This document shows positions 5,302 to 10,075 of a stretch of DNA of 61,944 bases, piece by piece. Every line of letters starts with the position of its first letter. The stretch's first letter is position 1. Origin of the DNA: a virus (Duplodnaviria; Caudoviricetes); IMG/VR virus record IMGVR_UViG_3300020172_002942, positions 1-61,944 of that record. One strand, written 5' to 3'. Under the pieces are notes generated by a model, which saw only the letters and a list, made by a program, of their open reading frames with translations, was not told where the DNA came from and searched no databases. Both the position numbers and the translations under genes were made by a program.

Positions 5302-5670
5302 TTATTTTTCGTTTATTTCTTTAATATCTACAATTTTTACTTCTTCCCCAGACAACATAGCATCTAAAGTATCTTCTATTAGTTCTCTTTGTTCTGGAGT
5401 TAATAAGGCTACCTTTTCAATGATGGCAGGAACAGCAAAAACATCGCTTTGTATTTCGTGCTTAATGCCATCCCTAACTTCACTTGTTAAAAATGGGTGA
5501 GTTACAATATCTGAAAACATCCAATCTATTCTATCAATATATTTTTTAAATAGTCTTGATCCTGAAGAGTTAGGATATTGTCTTGTAAAATCCAAAAACT
5601 GTTCTTGTGCCATTTTCATATTTTGAATGGCATTAATAATGTTTGCACCCTTTTTTACTTCTTGGTTCAT
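5302..5670 (-). CDS. Hypothetical protein
   Basis: Start overlaps the stop of the exonuclease gene. Confidence 0.7.
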   Translation of the reverse strand: MNQEVKKGANIINAIQNMKMAQEQFLDFTRQYPNSSGSRLFKKYIDRIDWMFSDIVTHPFLTSEVRDGIKHEIQSDVFAVPAIIEKVALLTPEQRELIEDTLDAMLSGEEVKIVDIKEINEK

Positions 5671-6389
5671 TTATTAAAATTCAAATGTGTTTCTTCTAAT
5701 TCTCTTAAAAACTCTCTTGCTTTTTCTACTTTTTGTTGGATGCGTAATATGTCATCTTCGTTCCTACCAACATTAAACATTAGTACTCTTTCATCAATAG
5801 CAATATCATCAAAAGACATGTTAAACTCTATCTTCATGGCTTCTTTTACATATTCTGGGTTTTCTTCTGTAGCTACATCCATTTTTTTAAGCAAATAGTA
5901 TTTTTCTTGTTCTATTATGCTTTCTGGTGTATTTACTAAACAATATGCAATAACAGCACTTTTTGCCCCTGTTAACCACATATAAGACTGCATTTGCCAA
6001 TGGTATAAACTATCCAACTTATCTGGTATATTGCCTATAAATGTCCATAAATCATAACTAGACTTAATATCAATTATTCTATCATTATCAATAATATCTG
6101 GGAATCCAGTTATATAATCATTGGTAAATCTTTTGTCATTTTTGCTAAATGGCATTTTTAAATACATAGAAAGCAATTCAATAGAATCTTGTTCTACTTC
6201 TATTCCTTTCTTCATTTGTTTTGTTTGTATGTCCTTTTTACGTCCATACTTTTCAGCAATATAAACATCTAATAAATGTTTTTGAGCTGTTTTAGATAAC
6301 AACCCAGCTTCTTTATCAGCCTTTGATTGCGGTTCAGTCATTAAATAGCCTACAGAGCTTGCTCTGATGTGTGTGTTTTCCCATTGCAT
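5667..6389 (-). CDS. YqaJ/lambda-exonuclease-like PD-(D/E)xK nuclease
   Basis: IRASS...KG.EVE...TG.PDII...DIKSS...Y.WQ.Q.YM motifs. Confidence 0.85.
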   Translation of the reverse strand: MQWENTHIRASSVGYLMTEPQSKADKEAGLLSKTAQKHLLDVYIAEKYGRKKDIQTKQMKKGIEVEQDSIELLSMYLKMPFSKNDKRFTNDYITGFPDIIDNDRIIDIKSSYDLWTFIGNIPDKLDSLYHWQMQSYMWLTGAKSAVIAYCLVNTPESIIEQEKYYLLKKMDVATEENPEYVKEAMKIEFNMSFDDIAIDERVLMFNVGRNEDDILRIQQKVEKAREFLRELEETHLNFNK

Positions 6390-6392
6390 AAT

Positions 6393-6758
6393 TTACAGTG
6401 TTTTAAATTTATTATTATAGTATTCTAGTAATTCAGGATTGCTTTTGCTCATTAACTCCCAGGCTTTTAATTCTTCTTTTGTTTTGCAAGAATCAATAAA
6501 GTCTTTGGTTTTTTCAGCTAAAGTTTTTTTTGATTGAGTAGGAATTATTTCTTCAGAAATTTGTTCATCATAAAAATATCCTAGTTCTTTTAATCTGATA
6601 ACGCTTTGTTTGTGATATTCTTCTACTAATTCTCTAGCAGCGTCTAACGCTTTGCCTGCCGAATCTCCTTCATTAAGAGCAAATTCAACGCCAATTTTTT
6701 CAGAAGAATAATTTCCTAAATTAAAAGTTCTAGTGTAGTTAACGGTTTGTATATGCAT
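6393..6758 (-). CDS. Hypothetical protein (RTFNLGNYSSEKI type), possibly recombination-associated
   Basis: Motif typical of phage proteins found next to exonucleases. Confidence 0.65.
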   Translation of the reverse strand: MHIQTVNYTRTFNLGNYSSEKIGVEFALNEGDSAGKALDAARELVEEYHKQSVIRLKELGYFYDEQISEEIIPTQSKKTLAEKTKDFIDSCKTKEELKAWELMSKSNPELLEYYNNKFKTL

Positions 6759-6768
6759 ATATTTTGGT

Positions 6769-6966
6769 TTATTTAATTCTAATTACAGTAGTTACATCAT
6801 CTTTTATTCTTATTTTAAATATTTTGTCCTTATGCTCTTTTTTACGTTTTAACATTGATACCATAACTGTAACTGATGTGTATGGGTTGTTAAATAATGC
6901 AATGTCATTAATTTCTAATTTACCGACTTTGCTACTTACTGAATCTGGGCTAATATCTCGTGCCAT
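6769..6966 (-). CDS. Small basic hypothetical protein, possibly DNA-binding
   Basis: First gene after the leftward promoter at 6983-6990. Confidence 0.6.
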   Translation of the reverse strand: MARDISPDSVSSKVGKLEINDIALFNNPYTSVTVMVSMLKRKKEHKDKIFKIRIKDDVTTVIRIK

Positions 6967-6982
6967 ATGTTTTATTTTTTAT

Positions 6983-7041
6983 CAAAATTAATTTAATTAA
7001 TTTAATTAAAAAAATATATTTAATTAAATTTTGTATATTTG
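6983..7041. promoter_or_regulatory. Divergent Bacteroidota promoters: leftward TAATTTTG (6983-6990) and rightward TATATTTG (7034-7041), with TTAATTAAATTAA boxes between them
   Basis: Exact TAnnTTTG matches on both strands. Confidence 0.7.
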
Positions 7042-7045
7042 CTTT

Positions 7046-7107
7046 TCATATGCAATCAGTGTTAACGGTTTAACTCCCCCTTACGTTTCTACGTTGAGGG
7101 GTTTTTT
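7046..7107 (+). ncRNA. Putative ~60-nt small RNA with its own promoter and terminator
   Basis: Promoter 7034-7041, then hairpin CCCCTTACGT-TTCT-ACGTTGAGGGG plus T6; no credible ORF. Confidence 0.55.
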
Positions 7108-7548
7108 GTTCACTATAGTGCACCTTTCACGTTTCCGTAAACGGCATAAAAAAGTGGACAAGTCAAGTTTTACCTTTACTTTATTACAATTTTTGTCAAG
7201 TTATACCTTTACTTTGTAACATATTTATATGCTTATTTGTTACCGAAAAATATATTAAAGTAACATTTGCGCCCGTTTATTTTAATTTGCGCCCATAAAG
7301 TAACTTAAAAGACACATTTTGCGACACTTTGTGCTTTTTATGACACATTTTGCGACATTTTGCACATCTAAAAGTGCTTTTTTGTGAAAAAATCACAATT
7401 TATTATAATTTAGGTACAACAAGATATTAGAATTATAATTCTAATTTGCATGAGTTTTACCAAAAAAGCACATCTAAAAGTGCATTTTTAGAAACATATT
7501 GCTAATTTATAAGTCAAAATGAGCCGTATTTGATTGATAATCGGCTCA
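7107..7548. repeat. Non-coding array of about ten different paired direct or inverted repeats, operator-like
   Basis: GTCAAGTTwTACCTTTACTTT x2, ATTTGCGCCC x2, GACACATTTTGCGACA x2, GCACATCTAAAAGTGC x2, perfect 20-bp palindrome at 7426-7445, TGAGCCG-N15-CGGCTCA. Confidence 0.85.
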
Positions 7549-8091
7549 CTATTGATTGATAAATTTACTTTTGATTAAAAATAGCTTTGATCTATATTCA
7601 ATAATCAAATGCTTTAATTCTTCTCTTGTTGGTTTTGCTACTTGTCTTGCTGTTTCTTGTAAATAATCAACTATTCCCTTGTGCTCGTTTTCTAAATTCT
7701 TTTCAAATACTTGTAAATTGCCTGATAGTAAGCAATTATCATGTTCTGATTGTGGTCTGCAATTTGCTTCCATCCATCTCGTACCTAAATTTGCTCTAGG
7801 AATAAAATGTCCATTTTGTATTTTTGTCCAATGGTATTTTTTACCTGATGTAAAACATTCAACCATTCCTTCTTTATCCGCATACTTACAACGAATGTAT
7901 TGGCTAAATATTGCATCTAAATCCTGGACAAGGTTTTGAAAACTTTCTGTATCATCTTCAAACTCTTCCATTCTCTTTTGTGTGGAATGTATTGTAGCAC
8001 ACTGTTTGCACATCTTTTTTGAAAAATGATAATCTATTTTACCACAGTTAACACATCTTTTTTTCTTTACAATAATTGTACTATTACGCAT
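7549..8091 (-). CDS. ninG: NinG/Rap-family recombination endonuclease with N-terminal Zn finger
   Basis: LD.IFS.YIR...C.T.G...Q.GHFI.R...TRW.E.NC.PQ...N motif. Confidence 0.85.
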   Translation of the reverse strand: MRNSTIIVKKKRCVNCGKIDYHFSKKMCKQCATIHSTQKRMEEFEDDTESFQNLVQDLDAIFSQYIRCKYADKEGMVECFTSGKKYHWTKIQNGHFIPRANLGTRWMEANCRPQSEHDNCLLSGNLQVFEKNLENEHKGIVDYLQETARQVAKPTREELKHLIIEYRSKLFLIKSKFINQ

Positions 8092-8296
8092 TTTTTAACT
8101 TAATTTTTTTTAAATAAAATAATATGTTTTCATAATATTTCTTCTCAACATCATTTTTACTTTCTTCTTCCAATTTATGTAAATGTTCTAACGATCTTCT
8201 TTTTGCAATTTTAAATCTTTCTTCATATGGCACTTTTGTATAAGCCATATAAAACTTAGTTAGTACTCCAACAGCTTTGTCTTTATAACACTCCAT
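8084..8296 (-). CDS. Hypothetical protein
   Basis: ORF in the leftward operon. Confidence 0.55.
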   Translation of the reverse strand: MECYKDKAVGVLTKFYMAYTKVPYEERFKIAKRRSLEHLHKLEEESKNDVEKKYYENILFYLKKIKLKNA

Positions 8297-9379: not shown

Positions 9380-10075
9380 ATGCCAAAAGATACATTCTAC
9401 TTCTCACACGACTATAATGCTCGTAATGATGAGAAGATAAAAAGGCTAATAAGAAAACATGGCATGATAGGCTATGGTATATTTTGGTCTATAGTTGAAG
9501 ACTTATACAATAATGCGAACGCATTGCGAACGGATTACGATGGCATTGCGTATGACTTGAGGTCGGATAGCGAAATTGTTGCGTCCGTAGTAAACGAATT
9601 TGATTTGTTCATTTTTAATGGTGATTTTTTTGGTAGTAATTCTGTTCAAGAAAGATTAGATCAAAGAAATAACAAAAGTGAAAGTGCAAGAAAATCAGCT
9701 AGTTATAGATGGGAAAATGCGAACGCATTGCAAACGCAATCCGAAGGCAATGCTAAAAAGGAAAGGAAAGGAAAGGAAATAAAAGGAAAGGAAATAAAAA
9801 TAAAATACAGGGATAACATTTCTTTGACAGAAAAAGAAAATGAAAAACTTGTTTTAGAATTCGGGGAAGGTGTAGTAAAAAGGTGTTATGATTTTTTAGC
9901 TTCTTACAAGGTGGAAAAGTCATATTCTACAAAATCTGATTACCTAACTATCCGTAGATGGGTGCTAGATGCCGTAAATAAGCCAAATAAGACACTTTCT
10001 CCTCAAAATAGTACTAACCCTTACCAACAACAATTAGAGGCCGCTAGAACGGCTTATAAAACAATTTCTGAATAA
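9380..10075 (+). CDS. Replication initiator with DUF4373 (Lin1244/Lin1753-like) N-terminus
   Basis: YFSHD.NARND.KI..L...HG..GYG.FW..VE.L; carries internal iterons. Confidence 0.8.
   Translation: MPKDTFYFSHDYNARNDEKIKRLIRKHGMIGYGIFWSIVEDLYNNANALRTDYDGIAYDLRSDSEIVASVVNEFDLFIFNGDFFGSNSVQERLDQRNNKSESARKSASYRWENANALQTQSEGNAKKERKGKEIKGKEIKIKYRDNISLTEKENEKLVLEFGEGVVKRCYDFLASYKVEKSYSTKSDYLTIRRWVLDAVNKPNKTLSPQNSTNPYQQQLEAARTAYKTISE
9512..9806. other. Probable replication origin inside the initiator gene
   Basis: AATGCGAACGCATTGC at 9512 and 9716, further degenerate copies to 9753, then a purine-rich (AAAGG)n tract; lambda-O-like layout. Confidence 0.65.

What the first reader, a model, noticed from the sequence alone, without database searches (positions are those of the whole stretch)
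7107..7548. Non-coding array of about ten different operator-like motif pairs: possible DNA decoy sponge
Seen, packed edge to edge in 440 bp without a credible ORF: GTTCACTATAGTGCAC (7108-7123) with a further AGTGGACA half-site (7153); CGTTT-CCGT-AAACG (7130-7143); GTCAAGTTwTACCTTTACTTT x2 (7162, 7195); GTAACA...TGTTAC (7216-7243); TAAAGTAAC x2 (7256, 7296) enclosing ATTTGCGCCC x2 (7265, 7285); GACACATTTTGCGACA x2 (7311, 7342); GCAC-N8-GTGC 16-mer x2 (7362, 7468); TTGTGA-N5-TCACAA (7382-7398); perfect ATTAGAATTATAATTCTAAT (7426-7445); TGAGCCG-N15-CGGCTCA (7520-7548). Each motif is doubled or palindromic, several with 20-33 bp spacing (2-3 helical turns), and the motifs are unrelated to each other. 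That fits neither iterons, CRISPR nor a single repressor's operators, and the phage ori appears to lie elsewhere (9512-9806). Inference: this is a collection of binding sites for many host DNA-binding proteins (for example autorepressors of toxin-antitoxin, restriction or other defence operons) that the replicating phage titrates.
Basis: partly seen in the sequence, partly recalled or inferred. Interest (0 to 1): 0.85.

Follow-up and report, generated by a model that had tools for sequence, protein, structure and literature searches.

The report
Phage array copying host defence-gene operators
A 440-base gene-free stretch of an uncultured freshwater phage is a modular string of protein-docking DNA sites, at least two of which copy the control sites of bacterial anti-phage genes, so it may be a DNA decoy against host defences.

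Summary
Repeat density beats 500 of 500 shuffles.

The stretch fills an ORF-free gap between a NinG/Rap-like gene and a 65-aa gene. In 69 relatives this gap runs from 68 bp to 3.3 kb, so the array is accessory.

It belongs to a large family.

The words are conserved as sequence, with almost no compensatory change.

Two of eight module types tested have counterparts in Bacteroidota chromosomes:
- **TGAGCCG-N15-CGGCTCA** lies on the start of SoFic-type Fic genes.
- **The four-site GTTCAC module** is the operator layout in front of AbiEi_2 antitoxin genes.

The window carries both, at 7520-7548 and, diverged, at 7103-7161. The phage DNA held encodes neither protein. Six modules found no counterpart.

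Binding and titration are untested.

The parts
7103..7161 (.). Diverged AbiEi-operator-like module. Layout: GTTCAC-type words at about N11 / N5-6 / N11 spacing.
   Evidence: It aligns over the whole 59-nt host AbiEi_2 operator. Scores are 18 (shuffled maximum 16, 0 of 200 reach it), 17 (maximum 14, 0 of 200) and 16 (maximum 18, 2 of 200) for three host operators. Better-preserved copies occur in relatives.
7162..7226 (.). Two 33-bp tandem units, each with an imperfect dyad of the type GTAAAG-N6-CTTGAC on the minus strand (module H).
   Evidence: The same module with the same 33-bp period is in L006, L008, L069 and L321. No host counterpart: 5 of 221 genomes, fewer than the reversed control.
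7216..7243 (.). Dyad GTAACA-N16-TGTTAC (module C). The half-sites are 22 bp centre to centre.
   Evidence: A family-consensus pattern found 0 of 231 host genomes.
7256..7304 (.). Nested pair: TAAAGTAAC x2 enclosing ATTTGCGCCC x2 at a 20-bp period (module G).
   Evidence: The 20-bp period is kept in L008, L069, L070 and L293. Host search ambiguous: 8 of 261 genomes against 2 control; of the 5 loci examined, 3 hits are inside coding sequence and one is a TGCAC-word field beside a primase-like gene.
7311..7357 (.). GACACATTTTGCGACA x2, 31 bp apart.
   Evidence: No other copy in the 80 relatives: blastn found nothing over 7345-7357, the second copy lies outside every alignment, and the one alignment reaching 7311-7344 (L069) holds a different sequence there.
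7362..7483 (.). Two copies of GCACATCTAAAAGTGC (7362-7377 and 7468-7483; module J). They bracket TTGTGA-N5-TCACAA (7382-7398) and a module of AAATTATAA words plus a TACAACAAG word that includes the perfect 20-bp palindrome 7426-7445 (module I).
   Evidence: Host searches: J gave 9 sites in 8 of 201 genomes, all inside unrelated ORFs. I gave 1 of 236. The palindrome core at up to 1 mismatch gave 20 of 236, no more than the control.
7520..7548 (.). Module A: TGAGCCG-N15-CGGCTCA with a TTATCAATCA word in the spacer. The same word recurs at 7552-7562, inside the end of the NinG-like gene.
   Evidence: Its arms and spacing equal the palindromes on the starts of SoFic-type Fic genes in Bacteroidota genomes.
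7034..7106 (+). Companion unit at the other end of the array: a -7 box TATATTTG, about 30 nt, then a hairpin with a conserved loop and a T-run. Probably a small RNA or a terminator.
   Evidence: Exact box at 7034. In relatives the hairpin stems differ while the loop is kept, and the unit accompanies arrays in several gene contexts. This rests on inspection; no formal pair count was made.
7549..8091 (-). Flanking NinG/Rap-like junction endonuclease gene. The array starts at its stop codon.
   Evidence: PHROG 5034 at 4.1e-15; Pfam NinG at 33.2 bits against a 25.4 cut-off.
6769..6966 (-). Flanking 65-aa gene with its own -7 box (TAATTTTG on the minus strand, first base at 6990). A 121-aa gene and a PD-(D/E)XK exonuclease gene follow.

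Best explanation
Window 7103-7548 is one member of a widespread, accessory, modular family of gene-free DNA arrays in phages of Bacteroidota-type (AT-rich, freshwater). Each module is an operator-like set of 2-4 short words at fixed spacings of about one, two or three helical turns. That is the format used by dimeric or tetrameric DNA-binding proteins. At least two module types are copies of operators that sit on the promoters of host defence or toxin-antitoxin genes whose products carry their own DNA-binding domain: SoFic-type Fic proteins with a winged-helix-like C-terminal domain, and AbiEi_2 antitoxins of AbiE-like type IV systems.

Inferred mechanism: once injected and replicated to many copies, the array binds these proteins. 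That would pull autorepressors off their own promoters and raise antitoxin supply. It could also hold an effector by a domain it needs: the Sofic CTD is required for toxicity according to PMC12249575 (abstract and passages read). Either way it would blunt abortive-infection defences. Different phages carry different module sets, which fits different host defence repertoires.

Shown here: the array family, its modularity and accessory status, word-level rather than base-pair conservation, and the two host counterparts. Inferred: which proteins bind, that binding happens, and that it helps the phage.
For: Real and non-random.

Accessory: across 69 relatives the NinG-to-orf65 gap is 68-88 bp in 30 loci, 128-328 bp in 19, a 501-1025-bp ORF-poor array in 9, and 2.6-3.3 kb with accessory genes in 11. 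Of five relatives with no array at this site searched whole (four with short gaps, CheckV 100% complete; one with a 2.8-kb gene-holding gap, 59% complete), three gave only 23-nt matches and two gave none.

116 non-redundant arrays lie in at least three gene contexts: NinG to orf65 (the NinG family flanks 29 arrays, the orf65 family 34), terS to terL (about 24) and after a 172-aa gene that I read as structural, unscanned (10). Order is shuffled or inverted, as in L070 against L008.

Word-level conservation: in 53 aligned A-blocks only 7 cells show a change on both sides, and paired cells are 92.6% against 92.0% in shuffles.

Spacings are fixed at 11, 17, 20, 22, 31 and 33 bp.

Host counterpart 1: TGAGCCG-N15-CGGCTCA in 17 of 401 Bacteroidota genomes against 5 control. 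The sites are mostly TGAGCCGAWTA-N7-TAWTCGGCTCA in 1-3 tandem copies at a 44-45-bp period. 14 of 19 sites examined lie within 130 nt of a Fic_N-type start. The one gene scanned is DUF4172+Fic plus a C-terminal DIP2311-like_C match, and scores as PADLOC SoFic at 1.3e-46. In L421 the same palindrome precedes what I read by eye as a stand-alone homologue of that C-terminal domain.

Host counterpart 2: TGTTCAC-N5-GTGAACA in 4 of 201 genomes against 0 control. 3 of the 4 lie on the start of 327-336-aa AbiEi_2 genes (Pfam E 1e-24 to 1e-25), flanked by further GTTCAC words at N11. In G006 the next gene gives a sub-threshold AbiEii hit; in G171 a similar 279-aa gene follows with no Pfam hit. A host operator aligns gap-free with a phage array at 42 of 53 positions, score 31-33 against a shuffled maximum of 19-22. 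20 of 116 arrays keep the four-site layout.

No Fic or AbiEi homologue in the window or in 2.2 Mb of phage loci.

AbiEi is a known autorepressor that binds inverted repeats in its promoter (PMC7319586, abstract read).
Against: Six of the eight module types tested found no operator-like host site.

The true host is unknown.

The strict module-A pattern, with the phage-type spacer, occurs in only 2 of 185,579 species genomes. Both are MAG contigs; one plainly holds a phage-type array between phage-like genes, and I read the other the same way. So phage and host versions share arms and spacing but differ in the inner 8 positions of the right half and in copy number.

The window's AbiEi-like module is diverged and has one extra base in the central spacer.

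The Sofic paper read does not describe its CTD as DNA-binding. The Pfam hit to a regulator C-terminal domain is just below cut-off (26.4 against 27 bits).

Titrating an autorepressor would also raise toxin expression, so a net benefit to the phage is not obvious.

The minus strand folds better than shuffles (z -4.0), so an RNA role is not excluded.
Confidence: 0.5

Rival explanations
1. Regulatory co-option. The sites are real protein-binding sites, but the phage uses the bound proteins (host defence regulators or unrecognised phage regulators) to control or time its own neighbouring transcription units, including the small promoter-terminator unit at 7034-7106. It does not titrate them.
For: The array lies inside the early leftward operon with no predicted intrinsic terminator after the NinG-like gene. 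A promoter-plus-hairpin unit accompanies arrays in several contexts. In relatives with longer gaps, word pairs sit directly upstream of small genes: TGTAGCTACA x2 before a 92-aa gene in L013 and GATACG x4 before a Zn-ribbon gene in L034.
Against: The same arrays occur in unrelated gene contexts and in either orientation. No canonical -7 box lies inside 7107-7548. Close relatives do without the array at this site; of five searched whole, four CheckV 100% complete, none holds one elsewhere. No homologue of the two identified binding proteins is encoded in the phage DNA held.
Confidence: 0.15
2. Structured non-coding RNA or an RNA decoy array, for example mimics of antitoxin RNAs as in pseudo-ToxI. 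The dyads would be hairpins in a read-through transcript of the early operon.
For: The minus-strand RNA fold is -102.4 kcal/mol with z = -4.0 (0 of 100 shuffles); the plus strand gives z = -2.2. Some dyads change on both arms between relatives, for example TGTTAC..GTAACA against TGTCAC..GTGACA.
Against: No Rfam family reaches its threshold; the best is LOOT at 27.7 bits against a gathering score of 46.4. RNAalifold on 53 A-blocks finds only the invariant 7-bp stem. The explicit three-helix test shows 7 doubly changed cells and no excess of pairing over shuffles. Many modules are direct repeats at a fixed 20-33-bp period, which cannot pair. The 'loops' of the dyads are mostly 13-16 nt. G·T and A·C mismatches are about equally common, 350 against 313, so no strand is favoured. 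Orientation relative to flanking genes is not fixed.
Confidence: 0.1
3. Non-functional debris. The site is an insertion hotspot, and the array is what remains of promoters and operators of accessory (defence) cassettes once carried there and later deleted, or of captured host DNA.
For: The same gap holds accessory genes in 11 relatives: a metallophosphoesterase, a DUF6782-like protein and small proteins with word pairs upstream. Phages and other mobile elements commonly carry defence genes (recalled general knowledge).
Against: Modules are packed edge to edge, and I saw no coding remnant between them when reading the array sequences; this was not tested. The same modules are kept at 70-95% identity, read by eye from the alignment, in more than 100 phage loci and in different genomic sites. 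The words are better conserved than the spacers. No Fic or AbiEi fragment is detectable by tblastn in 2.2 Mb of phage loci.
Confidence: 0.1
4. Replication origin, packaging site or other essential cis element of the phage.
For: The arrays are dense in direct and inverted repeats and AT-rich. In one phage group they lie between the small and large terminase genes.
Against: The array is absent from this site in close relatives; five were searched whole (four CheckV 100% complete) and none holds one elsewhere. It has many different word types rather than one iteron. An iteron field with an 11-bp period lies inside the initiator gene at 9501-9805. The family occupies unrelated genomic positions.
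Confidence: 0.03

Closest known systems
AbiEi operator of the AbiE type IV toxin-antitoxin / abortive-infection system (PMC7319586, abstract read; PMC3985639, search listing and start of abstract only)
   Same: Inverted repeats bound cooperatively by a winged-helix antitoxin. The phage module reproduces the four-word layout, the spacing and about 79% of the sequence of the site in front of Bacteroidota AbiEi_2 genes.
   Different: In the phage no abiE gene follows. The site is one of many unrelated modules in a gene-free array, so it cannot be an autoregulatory operator there.
Titration or decoy sites for a single DNA-binding protein: E. coli datA for DnaA, P1 incA iterons for RepA (both recalled, not read); decoy transcription-factor sites studied in PMC3322331 and PMC8599769 (search listing and start of abstracts only)
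   Same: DNA sites that are not next to a regulated promoter and would act by soaking up a protein. The effect should scale with copy number.
   Different: Those are many copies of one site for the element's own or the cell's own regulator. This is a collection of different sites, at least two of them for foreign (host defence) proteins, carried by a virus.
   Same: A non-coding phage locus that copies a host defence system's own nucleic-acid ligand. Accessory and variable among relatives.
   Different: Those act as RNA and mimic one system. Here the conservation pattern points to double-stranded DNA sites, and several systems are combined.
PeSL-type promoter / stem-loop cassettes of T4-type phages and REP/BIME mosaic palindromes (both named in earlier notes e1-3539564 and e1-2321797; papers not read)
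   Same: Modular palindrome-rich non-coding DNA at gene junctions, with a mosaic order.
   Different: No promoter box inside the array. The motifs do not recur elsewhere in the genome, so they are not dispersed repeats. Two modules trace to specific host operators.

Membership tests
Operator of an AbiEi-family antitoxin | Inverted repeats lying on the promoter or start of an abiEi gene | tested here: not met
   Met for the host sites: 3 of 4 hits lie on AbiEi_2 gene starts. Not met for the phage copies: no AbiEi homologue in the window or in 2.2 Mb of phage loci; the best tblastn E is 0.034, in unrelated L316. The phage module is a copy of the operator, not an operator of its own gene.
Operator of an AbiEi-family antitoxin | Sequence and spacing match to a bona fide operator | tested here: met
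   42 of 53 positions without gaps between host L435 and phage L339, scores 31-33 against a shuffled maximum of 19-22. The window module scores 18 and 17, above all 200 shuffles, and 16 (2 of 200 reach it).
Operator of an AbiEi-family antitoxin | Bound by the AbiEi protein | not testable with these tools
   Needs a gel shift or pull-down. The complex predictor takes no DNA.
Binding site of SoFic-type Fic proteins | Palindrome shared with sites on the starts of SoFic-type genes | tested here: met
   Same 7-bp arms and 15-bp spacing. The left inner ATTA is also shared. 17 of 401 genomes against 5 control. 14 of 19 sites lie within 130 nt of a Fic_N start. One adjacent gene was scanned and scores as PADLOC SoFic at 1.3e-46.
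Binding site of SoFic-type Fic proteins | The C-terminal domain is a DNA-binding domain that recognises the palindrome | tested here: inconclusive
   The Pfam DIP2311-like_C hit is 26.4 bits against a 27-bit cut-off. What I read by eye as a stand-alone homologue of the domain sits behind the same palindrome in L421. The Sofic structure paper describes 3 helices plus 3 strands but no DNA binding.
Structured non-coding RNA | Helices supported by compensatory changes across relatives | tested here: not met
   7 doubly changed cells in 1306. Paired cells are 92.6% against 92.0% in shuffles. Helix 1 has 22-26 of 53 unpaired cells at two positions. No Rfam family reaches threshold.
Replication origin / packaging site | Present in all complete relatives that share the replication or packaging genes | tested here: not met
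   The gap is 68-88 bp in 30 relatives. Five relatives with no array at this site, four of them CheckV 100% complete, show no array-like match elsewhere. Ori-like iterons lie at 9501-9805.
Dispersed palindromic repeats (REP/BIME-like) or CRISPR | The same unit repeated many times in the genome, or regular repeat-spacer periodicity | tested here: not met
   The longer motifs occur only inside 7107-7548. Each occurs twice at most, and the units differ from each other.
Decoy / titration site array | Sites for a protein whose regulated gene lies elsewhere, and no cognate gene nearby | tested here: met
   Counterpart operators lie in host chromosomes. No cognate genes in the phage DNA held.
Decoy / titration site array | Measurable sequestration of the protein with a phenotypic effect | not testable with these tools
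   Needs a reporter, plating and binding experiments.

The most novel reading that the evidence does not exclude
Phages of freshwater Bacteroidota carry exchangeable 'operator libraries'. These are gene-free DNA arrays that collect copies of the control sites of host abortive-infection and toxin-antitoxin genes (SoFic-type Fic, AbiE and others still unidentified). As multicopy DNA decoys they would disarm or mis-regulate several defence systems at once. That would be a DNA-level counter-defence with no protein or RNA product.
Probability: 0.4. Interest if true: 0.92.

Novelty: categorically new. Interest (0 to 1): 0.85.

Why it matters
All described phage counter-defences that I could find act through proteins, RNAs or small molecules. 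My searches and a November 2026 review of countermeasures found no phage DNA-site decoy. In that review, 'operator', 'titrat', 'non-coding' and 'DNA mimic' occur 0 times.

If the arrays work as proposed, three things follow:
- **A new class of anti-defence element.** It is invisible to gene-based annotation.
- **A reading of 'empty' accessory DNA.** It would account for gene-free accessory stretches in many metagenomic phages.
- **A guide to regulators.** Each unexplained module would predict a host or mobile-element regulator and its operator.

Independently of the phage, the host-side observation appears undescribed in what I read. Tandem TGAGCCG palindromes lie on the starts of SoFic-type genes and before a gene I read as a stand-alone copy of their C-terminal domain. 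This suggests that the domain binds DNA.

Tried and rejected
**RNA evidence.** The look-up of sequencing runs listed no RNA holder for window 6400-8100, so expression could not be examined.

**Rfam.** Only sub-threshold LOOT (27.7 against 46.4 bits) and S15 leader hits in the region. Nothing at gathering threshold in the window or in 9 relatives apart from tRNA-Gln genes outside the arrays.

**Isolate phages.** blastn of 6700-8100 found no match.

**IMG/VR scan of the 16-mer GACACATTTTGCGACA.** Nearly all of the 45 examined lie in one GC-rich conserved block (translated by eye; no ORF call) of an unrelated phage group. Rejected as chance amplified by a family.

**Promoter reading.** No exact TAnnTTTG box inside 7107-7548. 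The sigma-70-type scan was at shuffle level, 11 found against 9.1 expected.

**Terminator reading of TGAGCCG..CGGCTCA.** Dropped, because in relatives the module often follows a separate terminator and is not followed by a T-run.

**Long-range pairing of the TTATC..TCA words.** Tested and not supported.

**Strand test by G·T against A·C mismatches in dyads.** 350 against 313, uninformative and confounded by redundancy.

**Host-operator searches with no operator-like counterpart (G ambiguous).**
- G: 8 of 261 genomes against 2 control; of the 5 loci examined, 3 hits are inside coding sequence, one is intergenic between housekeeping-type genes, and one is a TGCAC-word field beside a primase-like gene.
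- H: 5 of 221, fewer than the control, which hit over 20 genomes.
- J: 9 sites, all inside ORFs.
- C: 0 of 231. The pattern used was the family consensus ending TGTTACAA, which the window copy (TGTTACCG) does not itself match.
- I: 1 of 236.
- Palindrome core: 20 of 236 at up to 1 mismatch, no more than the control.

These samples are small and unnamed, so they are weak negatives.

**Not done.** Structure prediction, complex prediction, the protein atlas and the large protein searches were not used. Supplementary files of papers were closed and not consulted; they might hold operator sequences for AbiEi or Sofic promoters.
Full report
**What the window is.** It is a complete-looking IMG/VR virus record of 61,944 bp, with a CheckV estimate of 99%. 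It is AT-rich at about 30% G+C. Exact Bacteroidota-type -7 boxes occur in it (the consensus itself is recalled). Two of the boxes, with upstream TTTG, form a divergent pair at about 9090 and 9117.

From there an early leftward operon runs through a 138-aa gene and a NinG/Rap-like gene (7549-8091). It continues through a 65-aa gene (6769-6966), a 121-aa gene and a PD-(D/E)XK exonuclease gene (5667-6389). A repressor-like gene, a replication initiator and a primase-helicase run rightward.

The finding occupies most of the 582-bp gap between the NinG-like gene and the 65-aa gene.

- With 9-mers, local direct repeats cover 144 bases and inverted repeats 81 bases of the 442.
- Shuffle means are 12 and 17, and none of 500 dinucleotide shuffles reaches either value.
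- There is no tRNA, no Rfam family at threshold, and no exact -7 box inside 7107-7548.
- The gap's other end (7034-7106, plus strand) holds a perfect -7 box, about 30 nt, and a hairpin with a T-run.

**Relatives: the array is accessory and modular.** The NinG-like protein finds 205 relatives in IMG/VR, of which 80 loci were kept. In 69 of them the 65-aa gene is also in reach (11 loci were cut short). The gap lengths fall into four groups:

| Gap length | Loci | Content |
|---|---|---|
| 68-88 bp | 30 | none |
| 128-328 bp | 19 | short non-coding |
| 501-1025 bp | 9 | ORF-poor arrays |
| 2.6-3.3 kb | 11 | inserted genes |

- The inserted genes include a metallophosphoesterase, a DUF6782-like protein and small proteins.
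- Only the 140 bp next to the 65-aa gene is widely alignable. L069 shares window 6973-7344 at 88% identity, and other relatives share isolated modules.
- The arrays of relatives are built from a common vocabulary:
  - GTTCAC/GTGAAC words;
  - GTAACA..TGTTAC;
  - TGAGCCG-N15-CGGCTCA;
  - GTAAAG-N6-CTTGAC pairs 33 bp apart;
  - GCGCAAAT-type pairs 20 bp apart;
  - GCATGAA..TTCATGC;
  - GGTAGT-N3-ACTACC;
  - AAATTATAA words.
- Order and content vary, and in L070 the whole array is inverted.
- Five relatives with no array at this site were searched whole: four with short gaps (CheckV 100% complete) and one with a 2.8-kb gene-holding gap (59% complete). None holds anything array-like elsewhere: 23-nt matches in three, none in two. 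The element is therefore dispensable, which argues against an origin or packaging site.

**A widespread family in several genomic contexts.**
35 of them have the phage-type spacer; 16 also hold a homologue of at least one of NinG, the 65-aa gene or the exonuclease, and 19 hold none.
- Those contigs hold the same kind of ORF-poor array with the same vocabulary.
- 116 non-redundant arrays fall into at least three contexts:
  - NinG to the 65-aa gene: the NinG family flanks 29 arrays and the 65-aa gene family 34;
  - between a terS-like and a terL-like gene, about 24 arrays; the terS/terL names are my reading of the N-termini, not a family scan. In L293 this array is about 880 nt long;
  - after a 172-aa gene that I read as structural (unscanned), 10 arrays.
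- The strict pattern occurs in only 2 of 185,579 species genomes. Both are Bacteroidota MAG contigs; one plainly holds a phage-type array between phage-like genes, and I read the other the same way.

**DNA sites or RNA helices?**
- The minus strand folds better than shuffles (z = -4.0); the plus strand gives z = -2.2.
- The comparative signal is of the other kind. In 53 aligned A-blocks the words are near-invariant, and RNAalifold finds only the invariant 7-bp stem.
- An explicit three-helix model has 7 doubly changed cells of 1306, and pairing is no better than in shuffles: 92.6% against 92.0%.
- Many modules are direct repeats at fixed periods of 20, 31 and 33 bp.
- The dyads mostly have 13-16-nt 'loops', which puts half-sites about two helical turns apart.
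- GTTCAC words come as four sites with N11 / N5 / N11 spacing.
- This is the format of operators for dimeric or tetrameric proteins.

*Module A.* 17 of 401 genomes hit against 5 for the reversed control.
- The hits form a coherent family: TGAGCCGAWTA-N7-TAWTCGGCTCA in 1-3 tandem copies at a 44-45-bp period.
- 14 of the 19 sites in the 12 loci fetched lie within 130 nt of a gene start reading M..YNWQ. One of the 12 loci is the array-bearing contig in G006 itself.
- The one gene scanned is DUF4172 + Fic plus a C-terminal match to a regulator domain, at 26.4 against 27 bits. It scores as PADLOC SoFic at 1.3e-46. Its closest solved chain is 8cil.
- In L421 the palindrome precedes what I read by eye as a stand-alone homologue of the C-terminal domain.
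- SoFic is a defence protein that acts by AMPylation. Its C-terminal domain, three helices and three strands, is required for toxicity (PMC12249575, abstract and passages read). The paper does not mention DNA binding.

*Module B (TGTTCAC-N5-GTGAACA).* 4 of 201 genomes hit against 0 control.
- 3 of the 4 lie on the start of 327-336-aa AbiEi_2 genes (Pfam E about 1e-25) with the outer GTTCAC words at N11.
- In G006 the next gene gives a sub-threshold AbiEii hit, 20.3 against 22.5 bits; in G171 a similar 279-aa gene follows with no Pfam hit. G030 has no such gene.
- One host operator aligns without gaps to a phage array at 42 of 53 positions. Scores are 31-33 against a shuffled-query maximum of 19-22.
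- 25 of 116 arrays have the dyad and 20 have the four-site layout.
- AbiEi is an established autorepressor that binds inverted repeats in its promoter (PMC7319586, abstract).

*No cognate genes in the phages.* Neither protein has a homologue in the window or in 2.2 Mb of phage loci.

*The other six modules* found no operator-like counterpart (G ambiguous); details are under Tried and rejected.

**What this means for the window.** The array's two ends are the two identified modules.
- 7520-7548 is module A.
- 7103-7161 aligns over the whole host AbiEi_2 operator, though diverged and with one extra base in the centre. Scores were 18 and 17, above all 200 shuffles, and 16, reached by 2 of 200.
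- The seven or so modules in between remain unassigned.

**Best reading and its limits.** The array is a string of operator-type protein-binding sites. At least two are copied from the promoters of host abortive-infection or toxin-antitoxin genes whose products bind DNA.
- The consequence could be derepression, which raises antitoxin supply. It could also be sequestration of an effector by a domain it needs. This step is inference.
- Against: most modules are unexplained, the host is unknown, the phage and host versions of module A differ inside the arms, and the benefit of titrating an autorepressor is not self-evident.
- I put the decoy reading at about 0.5. The weaker statement, 'array of protein-binding sites, some copied from host defence-gene operators', I hold with much higher confidence.

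**Novelty.** Full-text searches for phage operator decoys or titration arrays found nothing relevant. A November 2026 review of phage countermeasures contains none of the terms 'operator', 'titrat', 'non-coding' or 'DNA mimic'. The nearest known things are single-protein titration loci (datA, P1 incA; recalled) and RNA mimics such as pseudo-ToxI (recalled, and named in note e1-295008).

Noticed in passing
window 9501-9582, 9716-9753 and 9756-9805: Five 11-bp-period iterons (ATTGCGAACG type), a further copy 171 bp on, then an AAAGG-rich tract. All lie inside the replication-initiator gene 9380-10075. This is a lambda-O-like origin within the initiator gene.
   Followed up: partly
window 7034-7106 (+); also L003, L004, L006, L064, L082, L262, L320: A promoter box plus a hairpin with a conserved loop (GTTTCTAC on the window plus strand). 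The stems differ between relatives while the loop is kept. The unit travels with the arrays into different gene contexts. Probably a small RNA gene or a regulated terminator. No formal pair count was made.
   Followed up: partly
host loci L411-L418 (handles G046, G146, G174, G242, G322, G374, G394): Tandem TGAGCCGAWTA-N7-TAWTCGGCTCA palindromes at a 44-45-bp period overlap the start codon of SoFic-type Fic genes. In L421 one precedes what I read as a stand-alone copy of the Fic C-terminal domain. This suggests that the domain is an autoregulatory DNA-binding domain, which the Sofic structure paper I read does not mention.
   Followed up: partly
L432 (G006:C50), about 230-280 nt from the AbiEi_2 operator: A host intergenic region holds TTACTCA / TGAGTAA words almost identical to a module found in many phage arrays (for example L063, L231, L320). 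This may be a third host counterpart. The gene it serves was not identified.
   Followed up: no
L034 gap positions about 500-760 and L013 gap positions about 2190-2430 (relatives with long gaps): A roughly 250-nt C-rich (G-rich on the other strand), ORF-free, conserved stretch in an otherwise AT-rich phage. No Rfam family reaches threshold. Possibly an unknown structured RNA on the strand opposite to the flanking genes.
   Followed up: partly
L013 gap about 2125-2175; L034 gap about 437-480: TGTAGCTACA x2, 33 bp apart, lies directly upstream of a 92-aa gene. GATACG x4 lies upstream of a 93-aa Zn-ribbon gene. These are ordinary-looking operators next to small genes in the same hotspot.
   Followed up: no
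L293 (about 880 nt between a 175-aa terS-like and a 378-aa terL-like gene), and about 24 similar loci: In another phage group the same array family fills the gap between the genes I read as the small and large terminase genes (names from N-terminal sequence only, no family scan).
   Followed up: partly
L422 (G146:C4): A Bacteroidota chromosome region is packed with TGCAC / TTTGCACC words at about 10-bp spacing, between a Zn-finger primase-like 359-aa gene and a divergent gene. It looks like the iteron field of an integrated element.
   Followed up: no
L070 gap 140-339; L231 downstream of the array: A small gene of roughly 65 aa (protein starting MDN.., ending ..GKRTLKIFLG) is embedded at the edge of some arrays. 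Its function is unknown and it was not searched.
   Followed up: no
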